A DNA stretch of 64,000 nt from Candidatus Latescibacterota bacterium (GTDB lineage Bacteria; Latescibacterota; UBA2968): contig OZ244960.1 in NCBI GenBank assembly GCA_965222605.1, positions 3,296,001 to 3,360,000 on the forward strand. Direction: 5' to 3'. The translations under genes and the position numbers were made by a program. Within the stretch, counting starts at the first letter, position 1, and each line of letters opens with the position of its first letter. The notes under the pieces were generated by a model. The model saw nothing but the letters and a program-made list of their open reading frames with translations, made no database searches and had not been told where the DNA came from. Below are positions 4,557-49,800 of this stretch, one piece after another.

Positions 4557-5285
4557 TTACCGCGAAAAGCCGATGCTCACGCCCCCCCAAATAGTGCGGT
4601 TGTCGGGATTGATTTTTGTATCGGCATAAGAAAATCCAATGGTTGGCGCAATCGCAATTGAGCAAGCATTACAACTGAGAGAAGCCGTAACCGTGACATC
4701 GTTAAAACCCGTTTTATCTTCGTAATTGCTCATGGCAACACTTGCACCAATGCTCAACACTTGCCCATCTTCTGAACCGAGCGGAATGTCATAGCCAGTT
4801 GACAAAGACACATACCATGCCTCGACCAGACCAAAATCGTAATAAAATGTCACTGCAGGTGATATGGCATTATCCAGAGAAATCCCGATATAAGCTTCTT
4901 GTGAGAGATTTGAGTCTTCAGACGCACTGGGAAATACATATTGGATATACCCAATTGAAATGCCCAGGCCCATATCTTCGCTCAAGGACCTCGAATAATC
5001 GGCATAAAAGTCAAGTTCATCGACATTTTGGGTTTGTGCATCGGGATTTCTGTCATTAATGCGGTCCTGCACAAACCACGATCCCCACCCGCCTACCGTC
5101 AATCCCGTTTCACCGAATCCCACCTCAATACCCGGCTGGGCCACAATTCTGTCATCGGCCCCAATCACATAACCACGCCAAATATATCCCGTATAGCTGT
5201 CCAGAGTCACACTGACCGACATCTGAGCGTTTGCGGGGGCAGCCAGCAAAATTCCTGCAAGCAAAAAGCCACATAACTTCTTCAT
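4557..5285 (-). CDS. TorF-like outer-membrane beta-barrel protein
   Basis: Signal peptide MKKLCGFLLAGILLAAPANA after GGAGGA SD; YIWRG, QPG, ELDFYADY, terminal aromatic beta-strand; start trimmed to 5285. Confidence 0.7.
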   Translation of the reverse strand: MKKLCGFLLAGILLAAPANAQMSVSVTLDSYTGYIWRGYVIGADDRIVAQPGIEVGFGETGLTVGGWGSWFVQDRINDRNPDAQTQNVDELDFYADYSRSLSEDMGLGISIGYIQYVFPSASEDSNLSQEAYIGISLDNAISPAVTFYYDFGLVEAWYVSLSTGYDIPLGSEDGQVLSIGASVAMSNYEDKTGFNDVTVTASLSCNACSIAIAPTIGFSYADTKINPDNRTIWGGVSIGFSR

Positions 5286-43192: not shown

Positions 43193-44864
43193 TCTCAACT
43201 GGCCCACGCTCATTTTTTTGGTGGGGTTGATCGTTTTTTTTGGATTTTTTTTGTTTTATCCCCTGTGGTATGCTTTTGTGCAGTCGCTGGTGGTCGATGG
43301 CAGGTTCACGTTTGCGTTTTACGAATTGATGGTGACGAGTCCGGTTTATCAAGAATCCATTCTCAATAGTTTTCGGCTGGGCATGATTACGACTATTGCG
43401 ACTACGTTGCTCAGCTTGCCTCTGGCGTTTTTGCTGGTGCGATACGATTTTGTCGGCAAAGGGTTTCTCAATGGTTTGATTCTCGTGCCGATGGTTTTGC
43501 CCCCGTTTGTAGGGGCTATTGGCATGAAGCAGATGTTTGCGCGTTTTGGCTCCATCAATTTGTTGCTTATGGATTTGGGGCTTATCGATCAGCCCATAGA
43601 TTGGTTTGGCGGTGGTGGCTTTGTGGGCGTGGTGATTTTAGAGGTGCTGCATCTCTATCCCATTATGTATCTCAATGTGGCCGCTGCACTTGCCAATGTC
43701 GATCCGAGTTTGGAAGAGGCGGCGCGCAATATGGGCAGCAAGGGGTTCCGCCTTTTTCGTACGATAACTTTTCCGCTGATGTTGCCGGGCTATTTTGCCG
43801 GGGCGATTATTGTTTTTATCTGGGCGTTTACCGATTTGGGGACGCCGCTTATTTTTAATTATCGCCAGGTCGTGGCGGTCGAGATTTTCAATTCTATTGA
43901 GGATATTAACGAAAATCCGATGGCTTACGCACTCGTTGTCTTTGTGTTGTTGTTGACGGTCTTTTTCTTTTATCTGTCAAAGGCGACGCTGGGCAATCGC
44001 CGCTATGAGATGATTGCGCGAGGGTATATCAGTTCGGGGTCACGCCCCGCTTCTCGCGGGATGACTGTGTTGATTTATGCCGCGATGTTGTCGCTTACGG
44101 GCATTGCGCTTATTCCGCATATGAGTGTGTTTTTGACGTCTATTGCCGAGCGCTGGTTTATGGCTGTGCTGCCCCAGGAGACGACGGGGCGATTTTATAC
44201 GATGGTTTTTGAGCACCCGATGTCTCTGTCCAGCATTGAGATGAGTCTGATATTGAGTGTGCTGAGTACAACGCTGGATGTTGTTCTGGGCATTGCCATT
44301 GCCTATTTTCTCACGCGCACCCGCATTCCTTATAAAGGCGTTTTGGATGCGATGGCGATGTTGCCCTTAGCCCTGCCCGGTCTGGTGCTGGCTTTTGGGT
44401 ATCTGGCGGGGTATTCGGGCACTTTTTTAGATGCGCGGCACTATCCCGTACCACTGCTGGTTATTGCCTATGCGGTGCGGCGGTTGCCCTATATGGTGCG
44501 CGCGGCGTATGCGGGATTTCAGCAGACGAGTGTGACGCTGGAAGAGGCGGCTCAAAATTTGGGGGCTTCTCGGTTGCGCACGCTTTTTCAAATTACATTT
44601 CCGCTGATTTTAGCCAATCTGGTGGCTGGTGGTATTTTGTGTTTTGCGTTTGCAATGCTCGAGGTGAGCGATAGTTTGATTTTGGCGCTTAAGGACGAAT
44701 ACTATCCCATCACAAAAGCGATTTACGCGCTTATGGGGCGCATTGCAGATGGTGCGTATTTGGCCAGCGCGATGGGTGTTTTTGGTATGGTGTTGTTGAT
44801 TGTGAGTTTGTTTTTGGCCGGGCGATTTTTGGGCAGGCGCATGGGCGAGTTGTTCCGCGTTTAA
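43179..44864 (+). CDS. ABC transporter permease (FbpB class, two TM modules)
   Basis: Two EAA motifs (LEEAARNMG, LEEAAQNLG). Confidence 0.9.
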   Translation: MRRFDLNWPTLIFLVGLIVFFGFFLFYPLWYAFVQSLVVDGRFTFAFYELMVTSPVYQESILNSFRLGMITTIATTLLSLPLAFLLVRYDFVGKGFLNGLILVPMVLPPFVGAIGMKQMFARFGSINLLLMDLGLIDQPIDWFGGGGFVGVVILEVLHLYPIMYLNVAAALANVDPSLEEAARNMGSKGFRLFRTITFPLMLPGYFAGAIIVFIWAFTDLGTPLIFNYRQVVAVEIFNSIEDINENPMAYALVVFVLLLTVFFFYLSKATLGNRRYEMIARGYISSGSRPASRGMTVLIYAAMLSLTGIALIPHMSVFLTSIAERWFMAVLPQETTGRFYTMVFEHPMSLSSIEMSLILSVLSTTLDVVLGIAIAYFLTRTRIPYKGVLDAMAMLPLALPGLVLAFGYLAGYSGTFLDARHYPVPLLVIAYAVRRLPYMVRAAYAGFQQTSVTLEEAAQNLGASRLRTLFQITFPLILANLVAGGILCFAFAMLEVSDSLILALKDEYYPITKAIYALMGRIADGAYLASAMGVFGMVLLIVSLFLAGRFLGRRMGELFRV

Positions 44865-45239
44865 ATGAATATCTGATGTTACGCAGTGCGCCAATGCAGG
44901 GTCACGGGCGAAAAAGATGATCGAAAAAGAGCTTGACCTGGCAGAAATTGCCATATATCTTGTTGCAAAGGACAAACGATTGCTATAATATCAAAAAATA
45001 ATTGCTTTATGGTGTTTATTGACTAACTGATGTTACGCATGTCTCGGATGTTTGTCATGCTGAGGCGGGCGCAATGAATCTCCTGCGCCCAACACCCGTC
45101 AGGCTGACGAAGCATCTTTTACTTCTGAAGGTAATTAGGTTATAGTAGATGAACTGCTATCGCAGTTGTACAGGTATAAGAAAGTCAAGTAGAAAAAGTG
45201 CCAAATTCGCGAGCGAGCAGGTATTCCTGCCAGATATGT

Positions 45240-45372
45240 CTCAGGGCTTTACACAGGTATGTCATTCAGGGTCAGTGCCCTTAAATTGCTTCATTCAAGC
45301 TCCTGAGAAGGCAGACGAACAGGTCACCGCTTCAGGGTCAAAGCCCGTATGTACAACTTCGTTCTATCCTGC
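45240..45372 (-). ncRNA. bridge RNA (target-binding and donor-binding loops) downstream of the recombinase
   Basis: Guide segments match the reconstructed target and donor junctions; twin GGGCnnnGACCCUGAA hairpins. Confidence 0.8.
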
Positions 45373-45385
45373 TCATCCCAGGAGC

Positions 45386-46654
45386 TTAAGCTGCTTTTTT
45401 TACTTGAGATACCGTTTTTTCCTTTTTGGTGTTGCCATTTATGTTGAAAGTTTCTTGTTTATTGACCAGCGCGAAGAGGATGCGTAAGAGTTTAGAGCAA
45501 AGGGCAATAATGGCTTTTTGTGTGGGTTTTCCTGCCCCTTTAAATCGGTGATAGGCCTCCTTGAAGATGGGATTATGGAAGATGAGGGGAAAGACCGCTG
45601 TATAGAGGATGCGTCTAAGTCTTGCGCGTCCCCTTTTGGCGATTCTTCGTGTGCCCTTTTTATATCCTGAAGAGATTTCAAAGAGGTTTAAGCCAGCCAG
45701 TTTGATGAGTTGTTCAGGTGCTTGATAAGCCTCAAAGGGGCCTGTTTCGCCGAGTATAGATGCCACACTGATTGGTCCCAGTCCAGGGATTGAGCACATA
45801 TATCCTGCTTGGGGTATATGTTGTAGGTGTTCGTTCATTTGGGTTTCGATTTCTTGCAGTTGGGTTTTAAGCAGATCCATTAAGCAGAGGGTTTGCATCA
45901 GTTCGAGGCAGATACTGTCTATGGCTTGGTTCACGCCAATGGAGGTGGAAGCCGCTTCAAGGACGGCCTGTGCTTTGGCTTTGGAGAGGCGACGATTTGA
46001 TGCCTTTTGGATCAGGAGAGTAAGTTCATCAATGCCAAGGGCTTGTATCTGCAAAGGCGTAGGTGCTACGTTGAGGATCTGTTGTGCGGTTTTGCCTGTT
46101 ATATCGCTGAAGAGGGACACAAACTCAGGAAAGAGGACATCCAGGATACGATGAAGCACGTTTTTAGCCGCTGTGATTTGATCTTTCTTTTCATAGCGCA
46201 TCGCTGTCAAGGCACGCAAATCGGCATAGACCCCTTCAGGCAGATAGGCCCTGTGAGACTTGCCTTGGCGTACCATATCAGCGATGACACCAGCATCCTT
46301 GTCGTCTGTTTTTAAGGGACTGTTGTCCCCCATCTCTTTCGACCAGCGCACATGGGAAGGCTGAATCAGGACGAAGGGCTGTTTATGAGCCCGCAGAAAG
46401 TAGGCCAACGGCAACCAATAATGTCCAGTAGGTTCCATACCAATCAGGGTTGCCGCACACTGATGGTGCTTTTCAACCTGTCGGATTTTGTCGAGCAATG
46501 ACATAAAGGACATACCTTCATTGTAGAGTTTGAATGCCGCGATCTGCCTGCCTTCTAACATCATCTTGACGAAGTGAACCGATTTACCGATATCAATGCC
46601 AACGATCAAGGTGTTGGGTTCTACATACTCGATTTGCTTGTGATGCTTGGCCAT
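45386..46654 (-). CDS. IS110 family DEDD recombinase/transposase
   Basis: VGIDIGK, GMEPTG, KTDDKDA (DEDD); IPGLG, SSG, KRG in the Tnp domain. Confidence 0.95.
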   Translation of the reverse strand: MAKHHKQIEYVEPNTLIVGIDIGKSVHFVKMMLEGRQIAAFKLYNEGMSFMSLLDKIRQVEKHHQCAATLIGMEPTGHYWLPLAYFLRAHKQPFVLIQPSHVRWSKEMGDNSPLKTDDKDAGVIADMVRQGKSHRAYLPEGVYADLRALTAMRYEKKDQITAAKNVLHRILDVLFPEFVSLFSDITGKTAQQILNVAPTPLQIQALGIDELTLLIQKASNRRLSKAKAQAVLEAASTSIGVNQAIDSICLELMQTLCLMDLLKTQLQEIETQMNEHLQHIPQAGYMCSIPGLGPISVASILGETGPFEAYQAPEQLIKLAGLNLFEISSGYKKGTRRIAKRGRARLRRILYTAVFPLIFHNPIFKEAYHRFKGAGKPTQKAIIALCSKLLRILFALVNKQETFNINGNTKKEKTVSQVKKAA

Positions 46655-46851
46655 GGTTGCCTCCTCGAAGAAGATAATTAAATGGTTTTTTTGCAATCTT
46701 CGAATTTGGCAACTATGGCCTGTTTACTCAACTTTTTTCTTTACCCTTTATTATAGCAATCACCGCTCCTTCGACTCCGCTGCGCTCAGAATGACAGGCG
46801 CAGGATATTGTGCCTCTGCGTAACGTCAGTGAATATGCAAAAGAGGTTGTG

Positions 46852-49800
46852 ATGAATTTACAGATATGGGTAATTATTTTTTCAAACGTTATACTCGGGA
46901 TGGTCAACGTTGCGATGGCACAGAATACACCATGGCGCTATGATTTTGAAGAGATGTCTGAGATTTATCGGGCAGATGCGGGCAGCGAGGTTTCGCTTTC
47001 GGCGAGATGTTATAAGGCAGGGCAGCAATCTCTCAAATGGACCTGGCAAAATAACGGGCGGCTTGTGTTTACGGATCCTGCAACGCAAAGCAATCGGGCA
47101 CTGGATGGATTTCGGGCGTGGGTGTACAACGAGGAGGCTCTTAACGAGGTGCTGACTTTTGGGTTTGGCACAGAATCAGAATTGGGGGCAAATAACCCGC
47201 GTTATCAGTTTGAGTTTGGCTTGAATTTTACGGGCTGGCGGACGATGTGGATCAGTTTGCAAGAGGATGCGCGGAACAATTCTTATACGGGTGCGGGTAA
47301 TGGACGGGTGACGGCGTTTGATATCCGTGCGCCGAATAGCGGGACTGTGTATCTGGATCTGATGGAATTGGTGGAAAGGATTGACCTCAGGCGATCTGCC
47401 GACGCACAGGTTCCATTTGTCAATGCAAGAAGAGCAGGGCAAACCCGCGAATACCGATGGAGTCTGAACACATTGCCGGGTCCGCTTCCTTCGCAGATCA
47501 CCGATGAGGAACGACAGGCTTTTGAGACGATTGCCCGGCGGTATGAGACCTGGGTGTTCGGCAACGAGGTGAAGGATGATTTGCGGGAGCCTGTGAGGAT
47601 TCGGCTCAATGAGCTTACAGCCTATATGAGGCGAGGGCATCGCAATCTCGCAGATTATGAGATTCGGCGAGAGGATGACCGCATTTTGGGAAAGCCTCTG
47701 TTTGCCGAGCGATCGCCCTATAAACCCCTTTTTCAGAGTGTTTTCCAGGGGGTTTTGTTGCGTCTGGTGCTGGATTATCGGTTGAATGGCAATGATGAAG
47801 CCAGAGATCGCGTGATAGATCTCTTCGATTATCTGCACGATCAGGGATGGGCAGAAGGCAGTGGTGTAGGCGCGATGCATCACGAGTTTTTGCGGATTGC
47901 GAGCTATGCTCATGCCGTGTATTTGATGCGTGATATTCTGGGCGATACAGAGCGGCTGGAACGGGAATTGGCGAGCTTGAGATGGTATAGCATGTTTGGA
48001 GAGTTGTATGAACAGACCTGGGATCCGGGCACGAATGCAGATTTTTTGCGTTCGGTGGCGATGTATCGTTTGTTGTGCATTTTGATGATGGACGATACGC
48101 CTGAGAAAGTGGCAACTATGCGTCGCTATATTGTATGGCTCAACAATGCGCTGGATATTGCGCCCGGGTGGCTGGATACGATTAAGCCGGATTTTGTGGG
48201 TTTTCATCACCGGGGTATCTATGCCAATGCGTATGCGCCAAATGCTTTTCACGTGGCTTCAATTCTGGTGTATTTGTTGCACGATACGCCTTTTGCGGTT
48301 GCCGAGGAGAAGCGCGATAATTTGAAGCAGGCGCTGTTGACGGCCAAGGTGATGACGAATACGTATGATATTTCGACGGCTATCGGTGGTCGCTTTCCGC
48401 TTAATACAACGGTAACCGATGGACTGTTGCCGGCGTATATGTATATGGCTTTGAGCTATCCTTCGGTGGATGTGGAATTATCTGGTACATTTATGCAGCT
48501 TTGGAGACCGAAGTCGCAGTTGCTGATAGAGGGTATGTTCGAACAGGTAGCTGCGCGGATTATGTATTTGCATACGCCGGGTGCGATGCAGATGATGGTG
48601 GATTTTGCAGCGGCGGGGCATCCACCTATCGCTGCGCCGTCTGGGCATTGGACGCTGCCTTATGGCGCGTTGTCCATTCATCGGCGTGCGGGTTGGATGG
48701 TGAGTATGAAGGGGTGGAGCAAATATGTGTGGGATTTTGAGTCGTCATCCGGCGGAGAAAATCAACTCGGTCGTTATTTGAGCTATGGTTCGATGCTGAT
48801 TTACGCGAGTGGTGATCCGGTTACGCGCGAGGCGAGTGGGATTGTTCGAGAGGGGTGGGACTGGAGCATGTGGCCCGGTACGACGGTGATTCGCCTGAGT
48901 CATGCGGAGCTTAACCAGAAGATGGACCATCGCAATTTTTCGGATGAGACTTTTGTGGGTGGGGTGAATCTGAAAGGACAAAACGGTGTGTTCGCGCTGA
49001 AGTTGCACGATACGGAGTACAATACGAGTTTTCGGGCGGTTAAGACGGTGTTTTGTTTTGATGATGTACTTGTTTGCCTGGGGTCGGGTATTGTGAATAA
49101 TGATGGTGGGCATGCGACGGTGACGCCGCTGTTTCAGGCGTCTATATCCCAAGACCGTCCTACGGGGGTGAATGGGGAAAGTGTGCGGGCGATTCCCTAT
49201 ACATTTTCGGGGACAACGGGGCAGACCGCATGGGTGATGGATGCAGCGGACAATGGGTATGTGATTCCCAATGGAGAGGGTTTGCGGGTGCAGCGTCAGG
49301 TGCAAGTTTCTGAAGATTTCGGCAGAGATAGTGGCGGTACAGGGTCTTTTGAATTGGCGTATCTGGATCACGGGAGCTCGCCTCAAGGTGCGTCATATCA
49401 CTATGCCGTGCTGGTTCAGCGGTCGCCGGGGCAAGTACGCGCGTTTGCGAGCGCACCGGAATACGATGTGTGGCAGCAAGATCAAGAGGCACATATCGTG
49501 TATCATCCGGGAATGAAGACGACGGGCTACGCGCTGTTTAATACGGATGCAAGGCCGACGGATGGTCCGGTTGAGGCTGTATCTTTGCCGAGTTTGGTGA
49601 TGACCCGCGAAGTGAATGATGGCTTATTGCTTTCGGTTGCGGATCCGGATTTTGGGTGGAGTTGGACCATTCAAAGGCGGCACCGCCAGGATGGCTCACT
49701 AATTGTCAATCAGCCGAGTATGCCTCGGAAGGTAGAGGTGACAGTGCGCGGGAAATGGACTCTGGATCAGTCCTATGATCTGGCAGAGATTGTAGATGAG

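What the first reader, a model, noticed from the sequence alone, without database searches (positions are those of the whole stretch)
45164..46770. IS110 bridge-RNA recombinase with a readable target and donor code (CA core, 3' RNA)
Seen: the junctions are AGTTGTA-CA-GGTATAAG (45164-45180) and TAGCAAT-CA-CCGCTCC (46754-46769). This gives target AGTTGTA-CA-CCGCT and circle donor AGCAAT-CA-GGTAT. Circularisation builds TTGACT-N17-TATAAT pointing at the recombinase. The minus-strand RNA after the stop codon has loop 1 (45311-45372) with AGUUGUACA (9/9 to the left target plus core) and GAAGCGGUG (8/9 complementary to core plus right target). Loop 2 (45240-45307) has AGCAAU (left donor) and AUACCUG (complementary to core plus right donor). 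Each guide pair flanks a GGGCnnnGACCCUGAA hairpin. Known: IS110 bridge/seek RNAs specify target and donor; IS621 uses a CT core and an upstream RNA. Inference: an intact, likely reprogrammable member with a downstream RNA, no obvious sub-terminal inverted repeats and a different core.
Basis: partly seen in the sequence, partly recalled or inferred. Interest (0 to 1): 0.85.

Follow-up and report, generated by a model that had tools for sequence, protein, structure and literature searches.

The report
RNA-guided IS110-family insertion sequence, intact

Summary
Window 45173-46760, plus one copy of a 2-nt core, is a 1590-bp IS110-family element on the minus strand. It has a 422-aa DEDD/Ser recombinase, a 106-nt left end and a 213-nt right end that encodes a two-loop RNA.

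The genome holds 4 copies. Twelve more relatives were compared. All 16 lie between a left flank and a right flank that match the two loop-1 guides at 14-18 of 18 positions. Relatives at 77-85% protein identity carry different loop-1 guides and sit in a correspondingly different target, while loop 2 and the element ends stay the same.

Across 19 more distant loci, the 5' guide of loop 2 tracks the first six bases of the left end (16 of 19 perfect). A covariance model finds the RNA downstream of relatives on Bacillus and Clostridium plasmids, and 20 of 27 base pairs show compensatory changes.

Joining the ends creates TTGACT-17-TATAAT. A 3' RNA and a non-CT core are published traits of IS1111-type and other IS110-family elements. 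RNA expression and circle formation were not shown. Verdict: a real, recently active element and a new member of a known kind.

The parts
45173..46760 (-). Body of the insertion sequence: 1588 bp, or 1590 bp with one copy of the core.
   Evidence: Four copies in the genome share exactly these ends. Three are identical to each other and differ from this one at 17 of 1588 positions.
45171..45172 (.). Core dinucleotide copy at the right-end junction (CA on the + strand, TG in recombinase orientation).
   Evidence: The same 2 nt lie at both junctions, and empty sites carry them once.
46761..46762 (.). Core dinucleotide copy at the left-end junction.
45164..45170 (.). Right half of the target (TACAACT in recombinase orientation).
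   Evidence: The core plus right flank is TGTACAACT in 11 of the 13 insertions of elements with the AGUUGUACA guide, and TGTACAAAT in the other 2.
46763..46767 (.). Left half of the target (AGCGG in recombinase orientation).
   Evidence: AGCGG in 12 of those 13 insertions and AACGG in 1.
45386..46654 (-). Recombinase gene: 422 aa from ATG 46652-46654, stop codon at 45386-45388.
   Evidence: Pfam PF01548 (E 6.9e-30) and PF02371 (E 7.2e-20). NCBIfam NF033542 scores 225 bits against a cut-off of 140. D21, E74, D117, D120 and S329 align with the catalytic motifs of IS621 and ISCro4.
46660..46666 (-). Ribosome-binding site GAGGAGG, 5 nt before the ATG.
46750..46755 (-). -10 box TATAAT, starting 5 nt inside the left end.
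45183..45188 (-). -35 box TTGACT, ending 10 nt from the right terminus. It is functional only once the ends are joined.
   Evidence: The spacer is 17 nt in the joined form. Integrated copies have poor -35 boxes.
45175..45184 (.). Sub-terminal inverted repeat, right-end arm (TATAAGAAAG on the + strand).
   Evidence: Matches 46746-46755 at 9 of 10 positions. Among 5000 shuffles of the terminal 80 nt, 23 reach this.
46746..46755 (.). Sub-terminal inverted repeat, left-end arm. It overlaps the -10 box.
45199..45209 (.). Second inverted repeat, right-end arm (TGCCAAATTCG).
   Evidence: 11 of 11 with 46701-46711 (pair I20). None of 500 shuffles reach this. Only 9 of 11 in the 76-85% relatives, with no compensating change.
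46701..46711 (.). Second inverted repeat, left-end arm.
45234..45391 (-). Bridge/seek RNA as modelled (158 nt). Its true 5' and 3' ends are unknown.
   Evidence: Span of covariance model R1. R1 has 4 hits in the genome, one in each IS copy, and hits in distant relatives.
45297..45387 (-). Target-binding loop with its closing stems.
   Evidence: Helices 1-4. Its guides change together with the flanks in relatives.
45350..45358 (-). Loop-1 5' guide AGUUGUACA. [quoted passage not shown]
   Evidence: 9/9 here. It changes to UGAUGAACA or AGAUAAACA in relatives that sit in TG-TTCATCT, TG-TTTATCG or TG-TCTATCT.
45325..45333 (-). Loop-1 3' guide GAAGCGGUG. It is identical to left target plus core and pairs with the bottom strand.
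   Evidence: 8/9 here. It changes to GAAUCUGUG in relatives whose left flank is ATCTG-TG.
45246..45300 (-). Donor-binding loop with its closing stem.
   Evidence: Helices 5 and 6 (100% paired; 4 of 4 and 2 of 3 pairs show changes on both sides).
45285..45290 (-). Loop-2 5' guide AGCAAU, complementary to the left end ATTGCT.
   Evidence: The same rule holds at the homologous place in 16 of 19 loci with 7 different left-end hexamers. The other 3 loci are judged 5/6 by eye.
45254..45260 (-). Loop-2 3' guide AUACCUG, identical to right end ATACC plus core TG.
   Evidence: A 7-nt identity, invariant in 8 of 8 close relatives. It is not above chance on its own. One relative lineage shows the same arrangement, read by eye.

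Best explanation
This is an autonomous, recently active insertion sequence of the IS110 family with the IS1111-type layout: short left end, recombinase gene, and a long right end that encodes the guide RNA.

Inferred cycle, by analogy with IS621 and ISEc11: the DEDD/Ser recombinase excises the element as a circle by recombining the two TG cores. The joined ends then form a sigma-70-type promoter (TTGACT-17-TATAAT), which transcribes the recombinase gene and, behind it, a roughly 160-nt RNA with two internal loops.

Loop 1 binds the target. [quoted passage not shown] Loop 2 binds the circle junction, with AGCAAU against the left end and AUACC-UG against the right end plus core. The recombinase-RNA complex then exchanges strands at the TG core and inserts the element without a target duplication. 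The target is a short motif at the foot of a dispersed hairpin repeat.

Shown here: the anatomy, the site specificity, guides and targets changing together in natural relatives, conservation and covariation of the RNA fold, and the junction promoter as a sequence.

Inferred only: that the RNA is made and bound by the protein, that a circle forms, and the chemistry of strand exchange.
For: Protein: both Pfam domains of the family are present, NCBIfam NF033542 is above its cut-off, and the catalytic D, E, D, D and S align with IS621 and ISCro4 and are invariant in 6 of 6 relatives.

Copies: there are 4 full copies with intact 445-codon open frames. Two of them sit in DNA that is unrelated beyond about 13 bp on each side of the insertion point. 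The genome has 18 exact empty 14-mers of the target against 0.05 expected, and 56 with at most 1 mismatch.

Recent mobility: in 3 of 4 congeneric genomes examined, the two flanking genes abut with no element between them. The fourth could not be judged.

Target code: across 16 insertions in 5 genomes and 1 metagenome contig, cognate guide-flank matches are 14-18 of 18, while non-cognate classes score 11-11.6. The changes GCGG to UCUG in the 3' guide and two of three changes in the 5' guide are mirrored in the flanks. The second target occurs uninterrupted 111 times (at most 1 mismatch) in G084, against 0 for the reversed control.

Donor code: in 16 of 19 loci of the wider clade, the hexamer after a GA..A motif in loop 2 is the exact complement of the first 6 nt of the left end. 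The left end was placed by its -10 box, independently of the guide, and there are 7 different hexamers.

RNA: model R1 finds full-length matches just downstream of the recombinase genes on a Clostridium plasmid (E 7.5e-8) and in three Bacillus plasmid copies (E 4.5e-6 to 5.3e-5). It finds nothing in the ISBth13, IS116, ISEc32, ISBth166 or ISEc21 loci. On the 13-row alignment, 20 of 27 pairs have changes on both sides, 93.6% of cells are paired, 0 of 500 shuffles reach this, and slid controls give at most 6 pairs.

Junction promoter.

Literature: the same architecture is described for IS1111-type elements.
Against: There is no direct evidence that the RNA exists. In three RNA-library runs, contigs cover the recombinase gene (45385-46769) but none covers 45192-45366, and carried-over DNA in those libraries is not excluded. 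No circle junction was seen in any of the 4 runs, which were contigs only.

A single-sequence fold is not better than shuffles (z = -0.77). Among the 8 close relatives, no base pair shows a compensatory change. All covariation therefore rests on 5 distant sequences, 3 of them from one plasmid, in an alignment that was fitted to the model.

The loop-2 3' guide is not above chance on this element. The heptamer CAGGTAT also occurs a third time, at 45218-45224. In the Bacillus relatives I could find only two of the four expected guides.

Three of the four copies carry a G-to-A change that breaks one pair of the stem closing loop 1.
Confidence: 0.88

Rival explanations
1. The element is real but now inert. 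The features are inherited, the RNA or the protein is no longer functional, and the four copies spread in the past.
For: Three of the four copies have a mismatch in a loop-1 stem. No RNA contig covers the non-coding region and no circle joint was seen. A decayed remnant (92 nt, 89% identical) lies elsewhere in the genome.
Against: All four reading frames are open. The copies differ at 0 to 17 of 1588 positions. The catalytic residues are intact. The insertion in the window is absent from 3 of 4 congeneric genomes examined. A congener holds 7 copies at different sites.
Confidence: 0.07
2. Target choice is made by the protein recognising the hairpin repeat, not by the RNA. The matches in the non-coding region are by-products, for example captured target sequence.
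For: Most targets lie at the foot of a palindromic repeat. The G after TACAACT is conserved in targets yet is not matched by the guide.
Against: Two copies sit in DNA that shares only the short motif. Relatives with changed guides sit in a different, non-palindromic tandem decamer. Guide changes are mirrored base for base in the flanks. RNA guidance has been shown experimentally for relatives of the family (sections 9 and 13 of PMC11187229; passages of PMC11208160).
Confidence: 0.03
3. Loop 1 is as described, but loop 2 is only half a donor code. AGCAAU pairs with the left end, while the right end is recognised in another way (by the protein through the sub-terminal repeats, or by another part of the RNA), and AUACCUG is a chance or structural match.
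For: The donor match count is at the random level. ACCUG also follows the loop-1 3' guide in this element, and CAGGTAT occurs three times. GACAU just before it is conserved in distant relatives as a motif. In the Bacillus relatives no right-end guide was found.
Against: AUACCUG is invariant in 8 of 8 close relatives, whereas the look-alike ACCUG in loop 1 varies (ACGUG, ACAUG) and the third copy is not conserved. In one relative lineage (L076/L080) the strand at the same place reads UACAUUAG, which equals its presumed right end plus AG core (read by eye; that boundary is inferred).
Confidence: 0.12

Closest known systems
IS1111-type elements with a 3' seekRNA/bridge RNA (ISEc11, ISPa11, ISKpn4, ISPst6; IS4321/IS5075)
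   Same: Short left end and long right end carrying the RNA. Sub-terminal inverted repeats. The guide complementary to the top strand lies 5' of the guide complementary to the bottom strand. A promoter is created at the circle junction. Natural retargeting occurs between close relatives (ISEc11 versus ISXne4 in the paper; this element versus its 77-85% relatives here).
   Different: The recombinase has 422 aa, against 330-350 aa reported for the IS1111 group. Only its C-terminal domain aligns with the IS4321 protein (27% identity, E 1e-9). In my tree it does not group with IS4321, but the deep branches are unresolved. The second inverted repeat lies 26 and 49 nt from the ends.
IS621 / ISCro4 (IS110 group; solved structures 8wt6, 9t56)
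   Same: DEDD RuvC-like domain plus a Tnp domain with a catalytic serine. A two-loop RNA with the target loop before the donor loop. A 2-nt core included in the pairings.
   Different: In IS621 the RNA is upstream, in the left end. The order of the guides within a loop is reversed. The core is CT rather than TG. The proteins are 326-341 aa with a short variable region. Sequence similarity is weak (E 4e-10 and 9e-7).
Unnamed IS110-family elements on Bacillus sp. CMF21 and Clostridium tagluense plasmids, and 32-38% metagenome relatives
   Same: They fall in the same recombinase clade (15 of 39 rows; support 91/82). Proteins are 414-442 aa with a long 3' non-coding region. The RNA matches model R1. 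They follow the same rules for the loop-2 5' guide and the loop-1 3' guide.
   Different: 34-38% protein identity. Different cores (GC, AG), different ends and different targets. Their other two guides were not located.
ISPpu9 / ISPpu10 of Pseudomonas putida
   Same: IS110-family elements that insert at a fixed dinucleotide within repetitive extragenic palindromes (passages of PMC12288879).
   Different: ISPpu9 is classed in the IS110 group and has its own strong promoter. Its downstream Ssr9 RNA is not needed for transposition.

Membership tests
IS110 family (broad sense) | N-terminal DEDD (RuvC-like) domain. | tested here: met
   PF01548 over residues 18-176, E 6.9e-30. D21, E74, D117 and D120 align with the GIDxxK, xExTG and KTDxxDA motifs of IS621 and ISCro4 and are invariant in 6 of 6 relatives.
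IS110 family (broad sense) | C-terminal Tnp domain with the conserved serine in a G(L)-x-x-x-x-x-x-SG motif. | tested here: met
   PF02371 over residues 286-369. GLNLFEISSG is present, and S329 aligns with the serine of the ESG motif of IS621. That this serine is S241 comes from the paper passages seen.
IS110 family (broad sense) | Site-specific insertion with a shared dinucleotide and no target duplication. | tested here: met
   16 of 16 insertions lie at matching sites. Empty sites carry the TG once.
IS110 family (broad sense) | Circular intermediate whose junction forms a promoter. | tested here: inconclusive
   The promoter is present as a sequence once the ends are joined. No circle junction was seen in 4 runs, which were contigs only.
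IS1111 group | Sub-terminal inverted repeats (7-17 bp according to PMC11208160). | tested here: met
   A 9/10 repeat lies 2 and 5 nt from the termini; 23 of 5000 shuffles reach this. An 11/11 repeat lies 26 and 49 nt in; 0 of 500 shuffles reach this.
IS1111 group | The long non-coding region, with the RNA, lies downstream of the recombinase gene. | tested here: met
   The left end is 106 nt and the right end 213 nt. The RNA model lies at 45234-45391, directly after the stop codon.
IS1111 group | The guide complementary to the top strand lies 5' of the guide complementary to the bottom strand. | tested here: met
   In recombinase orientation, AGUUGUACA (complementary to the top strand) precedes GAAGCGGUG (identical to the top strand). 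The criterion comes from section 9 of PMC11187229.
IS1111 group | Recombinase related over its full length to that of IS1111; reported size 330-350 aa. | tested here: not met
   The protein has 422 aa. BLASTP against the IS4321 protein aligns only residues 262-403. The tree leaves IS4321 on a long, unresolved branch outside the element's clade. No IS1111 or ISEc11 sequence was available. So the element works like an IS1111-type element, but membership of that subgroup by descent is not established.
Bridge/seek RNA | An internal loop whose two strands pair with the two strands of the target around the core. | tested here: met
   9+8 of 18 positions match; 1 of 20000 random sites reaches 17. The guides change together with the flanks in relatives.
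Bridge/seek RNA | A second loop whose strands pair with the joined element ends. | tested here: inconclusive
   The 5' guide is supported by 16 of 19 loci with 7 different left ends. The 3' guide is only a 7-nt identity that is invariant in close relatives.
Bridge/seek RNA | A conserved secondary structure. | tested here: met
   20 of 27 pairs have changes on both sides in 13 sequences, and the controls are far lower. Caveats: the alignment was fitted to the model, and there is no such signal among the 8 close sequences.
Bridge/seek RNA | The RNA is expressed and bound by the recombinase. | not testable with these tools
   Only contigs of RNA libraries were available, and none covers the non-coding region. 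Rfam has no matching family.

The most novel reading that the evidence does not exclude
The element belongs to a separate, so far unnamed lineage of RNA-guided recombinases. Its proteins have about 414-442 aa, and it has its own conserved, roughly 160-nt 3' bridge RNA that is absent from Rfam. The lineage is found in Latescibacterota, on Bacillota plasmids and in sediment and gut metagenomes, and is neither the canonical IS110 group nor the compact IS1111 group. It combines IS1111-like guide order and sub-terminal repeats with a long IS110-like protein, and it uses several natural cores (TG, AG, GC). If so, it would be an independent source of programmable recombinases with other core requirements. 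It would also bear on how the RNA moved between the element ends during evolution.
Probability: 0.3. Interest if true: 0.5.

Novelty: new member of a known kind. Interest (0 to 1): 0.33.

Why it matters
The locus is a clean natural example of the bridge/seek-RNA code. The target, donor, core and junction promoter can all be read from sequence. Close relatives in the same genus have retargeted from a hairpin repeat to a tandem decamer by changing only the loop-1 guides. This supports the generality of RNA-guided recombination in an uncultured phylum and offers a TG-core enzyme for testing.

It does not open a new question. The 3' position of the RNA, the sub-terminal repeats, the guide order, natural reprogramming and non-CT cores are all in print (PMC11187229, PMC11208160, PMC12288879). 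A search of the held library for 'Latescibacter' together with 'IS110' found no paper, so the organism is new for this family as far as that library goes.

Tried and rejected
Rfam (evalue mode, 44800-47000) gave no match.

Single-sequence folds of 218 and 161 nt were no better than shuffles (z = -0.77). Their minimum-energy structures differ from the covariation-supported one. In particular, the segment CUCAGGAGCUU can pair either with the 5' strand of the loop-1 stem or with AAAGCCCUGAG. Covariation favours the former for its upper 8 pairs (helix 1, 5 of 8 pairs).

The promoter and terminator scan found no site on the minus strand inside the element. I therefore assume the RNA is co-transcribed from the junction promoter.

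Sequencing runs: 24 runs were listed and 4 were laid, all as contigs. RNA-library contigs cover the recombinase gene. None covers 45192-45366 and there is no circle joint. The 'skip' joints belong to IS-free copies of the surrounding repeat. This says nothing about expression of the RNA.

The structure prediction of the recombinase from the 6-row alignment was poor (mean pLDDT 41.5, pTM 0.30).

Tree of 39 recombinases: the references IS4321, ISEc21, IS116 and ISEc32 sit on long unresolved branches, so the question of IS1111 versus IS110 descent stays open. The rows were hand-picked from 80 metagenome loci, 6 phylum loci and 8 annotated references.

A plasmid search with the IS4321 protein saturated at 5000 near-identical records and added no references.

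In the Bacillus plasmid copies I looked for all four guides and found only two. I did not resolve their right boundary.

The right ends of most metagenome relatives could not be fixed, so the loop-2 3' guide and loop-1 5' guide were not tested family-wide.

I checked for handshake-type pairing as in IS621 (passages). Only 1 nt after the loop-1 3' guide continues into the left end here. Some relatives appear, by eye, to continue for 2-4 nt. I make no claim from this.

Supplementary files of the papers were not opened. The ISfinder-wide tables of Durrant et al. and Siddiquee et al. may already list members of this clade.
Full report
WHAT IS THERE

The element body is window 45173-46760 (1588 bp) and is flanked on both sides by the dinucleotide CA. 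The recombinase gene is on the minus strand (45386-46654; 422 aa from the ATG, preceded by GAGGAGG). In the conventional orientation the core is therefore TG, the left end is 106 nt and the right end is 213 nt.

The protein carries both domains of the family (PF01548, E 6.9e-30; PF02371, E 7.2e-20) and passes NCBIfam NF033542, 'IS110 family RNA-guided transposase' (225 bits, cut-off 140). Its nearest solved relatives are ISCro4 (9t56, E 3.7e-10) and IS621 (8wt6, E 9.4e-7). In those alignments GIDIGK, MEPTG, KTDDKDA and ISSG line up with the catalytic D, E, D-D and S motifs. D21, E74, D117, D120 and S329 are invariant in six relatives.

COPIES AND TARGET

The window lies in a 6.34-Mb single-contig genome. 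Record titles of close relatives name the group as Latescibacterota. The genome has four full copies. Three are identical to each other and differ from the window's copy at 17 of 1588 positions, and all four reading frames are open.

Two copies lie in a dispersed repeat. The other two lie in DNA that shares only about 13 bp on each side of the insertion point. Elsewhere, flank matches abut with the core present once, which marks empty sites. The 14-mer AGCGG-TG-TACAACT occurs uninterrupted 18 times against 0.05 expected, and 56 times with at most one mismatch. It usually sits at the foot of a variable hairpin, AACTG...CAGTTCA.

In three of four congeneric genomes examined, the two genes that flank the window's copy abut directly, so window 44873-46829 is absent there. 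The fourth genome could not be judged.

TARGET CODE, TESTED ON NATURAL VARIANTS

Eight further copies at 93-95% protein identity occur in two other genomes. Four more relatives lie at 76-85% identity.

For all 16 insertions I extracted the flanks and the two loop-1 guides. Twelve elements carry AGUUGUACA and GAAGCGGUG and sit in (A/G)GCGG- or AACGG-TG | TG-TACAA(C/A)T, matching at 15-18 of 18 positions. One element has GAAACGGUG and sits in the same target (15 of 18).

Two elements carry UGAUGAACA and GAAUCUGUG and one carries AGAUAAACA and GAAUCUGUG. These three sit in ATCTG-TG | TG-TTCATCT, TG-TTTATCG or TG-TCTATCT, matching at 14-15 of 18. Guides scored against the other class of sites reach only 11-11.6 of 18.

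The two changes in the 3' guide (GCGG to UCUG) and two of the three changes in the 5' guide are mirrored in the flanks in the sense that base pairing requires. The second target is a tandem decamer that occurs 111 times (at most 1 mismatch) in one of those genomes, against 0 for the reversed control. Loop 2 and both element ends are identical in all 16.

On the window's copy alone, 1 of 20000 random genomic 16-mers matches the non-coding region as well as the real target does.

DONOR CODE

Within the close set there is no variation with which to test it. On this element alone the donor matches (6+7 of 18) are at the random level.

I therefore used the wider clade. In each of 19 loci I placed the left end 5 nt upstream of its -10-like hexamer. 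This is also where the flanks of lineage members diverge, 2 nt further out. I then asked whether the complement of the first six bases occurs in the 3' non-coding region.

It does in 16 of 19 loci, each time directly after a GA..A motif in front of the second hairpin, and for seven different hexamers. By eye, the other three loci have 5 of 6 at that place. This supports AGCAAU as the left-end guide.

The right-end guide AUACCUG rests on a 7-nt identity that is invariant in 8 of 8 close relatives. In contrast, a look-alike ACCUG in loop 1 and a third CAGGTAT at 45218-45224 are not conserved. One relative lineage shows the same arrangement by eye. In the Bacillus relatives I did not find it. I rate this one guide as likely, not shown.

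RNA FOLD

Single-sequence folding is uninformative. The eight close sequences show no compensatory change; there are 3 compatible one-sided changes and 3 unpaired cells.

A covariance model built from them, with a nested structure that I proposed, finds full-length matches directly downstream of the recombinase genes on a Clostridium plasmid (E 7.5e-8) and in three Bacillus plasmid copies (E 4.5e-6 to 5.3e-5). It gives weaker matches in four metagenome relatives and nothing in loci of ISBth13, IS116, ISEc32, ISBth166 or ISEc21.

On the resulting 13-row alignment, 20 of 27 pairs carry changes on both sides and 93.6% of cells pair. None of 500 shuffles reaches this, and slid controls reach at most 6 pairs. 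The alignment was fitted to the model and three of the five distant rows come from one plasmid, so this is support rather than proof. In the window's own genome the model hits only the four IS copies.

ENDS AND PROMOTER

Joining the ends gives TTGACT-17-TATAAT, whereas integrated copies have poor -35 boxes.

A 9/10 pair lies 2 and 5 nt from the termini (23 of 5000 shuffles reach this). A perfect 11-mer pair lies 26 and 49 nt in (0 of 500 shuffles). The 11-mer pair is only 9/11 in the 76-85% relatives.

COMPARISON WITH WHAT IS KNOWN

Durrant et al. state that IS1111 elements have short left ends, long right ends, sub-terminal repeats of 7-17 bp and a predicted bridge RNA in the right end (passages of PMC11208160). 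Siddiquee et al. show that the downstream non-coding region of IS1111-type elements yields the seekRNA, that the top-strand match precedes the bottom-strand match, and that natural and engineered retargeting occur (sections 6, 9 and 13 and passages of PMC11187229). The element fits all of these.

It departs in its protein. It has 422 aa against a reported 330-350 aa. Only the C-terminal domain aligns with the IS4321 protein, and nothing significant aligns with ISEc21. In my tree it forms a clade with the plasmid and metagenome relatives that share its RNA, separate from an ISBth13 clade, while the classical references remain unresolved.

Non-CT cores are in print: AG in ISPpu9, and AT, GT and TT tested for IS621.

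VERDICT

The element is a real, recently mobile, RNA-guided insertion sequence. It is a new member of a known kind. The open points are expression of the RNA, the circle, the right-end guide, and whether its clade deserves a subgroup of its own.

Noticed in passing
G000:C1:6101681-6101773 (outside the window): A remnant of a related element: the last 92 nt of the right end (89% identical, closer to the G083 variant) is joined directly to the left flank at a TG inside the donor-loop DNA. It sits in a full copy of the same target repeat. This is a deletion between two TG dinucleotides; whether the recombinase made it is unknown.
   Followed up: partly
window 44873-45172 and 46761-46829: The window's copy sits inside a dispersed intergenic repeat, of which about 160 bp (left) and 70 bp (right) recur at 12 or more places in modular variants. 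Repeat and IS together are absent from the same intergenic spot in three congeneric genomes, so the repeat itself looks mobile.
   Followed up: partly
window 45297-45308 versus 45376-45387 and 45240-45249: The RNA segment CUCAGGAGCUU can pair either with the 5' strand that closes the target loop or with AAAGCCCUGAG after the donor loop. The two pairings exclude each other in part. Covariation supports the first for its upper 8 pairs and a 4-pair version of the second. A possible conformational switch was not tested.
   Followed up: partly
window 45213-45230: A hairpin GCAGG-AAUA-CCUGC after the modelled RNA contains a third copy of CAGGTAT (45218-45224). It is not conserved in the 76-85% relatives, which have other hairpins there.
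   Followed up: no
G084, G073, G076, G083 (congeneric genomes): A tandem decamer TTCATCTG(T/C)G is very abundant: 30 to 111 hits of a 14-mer with at most 1 mismatch per genome, against 0-1 for the reversed control. It serves as the target of the retargeted relatives.
   Followed up: partly
L154 and L155 (Bacillus sp. CMF21 plasmid CP085709.1): Two solo fragments comprise only the last roughly 120-170 nt of the related Bacillus element (its RNA and right-end part) without a recombinase gene. This recalls the independent ssr9 modules of ISPpu9.
   Followed up: no
L070, L073, L076, L152 (relatives): In several relatives the loop-1 3' guide appears, by eye, to continue 2-4 nt past the core into the sequence of the left end, so that it matches the integrated left junction. 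This may be a counterpart of the handshake guides of IS621. In the window's element only 1 nt continues.
   Followed up: partly
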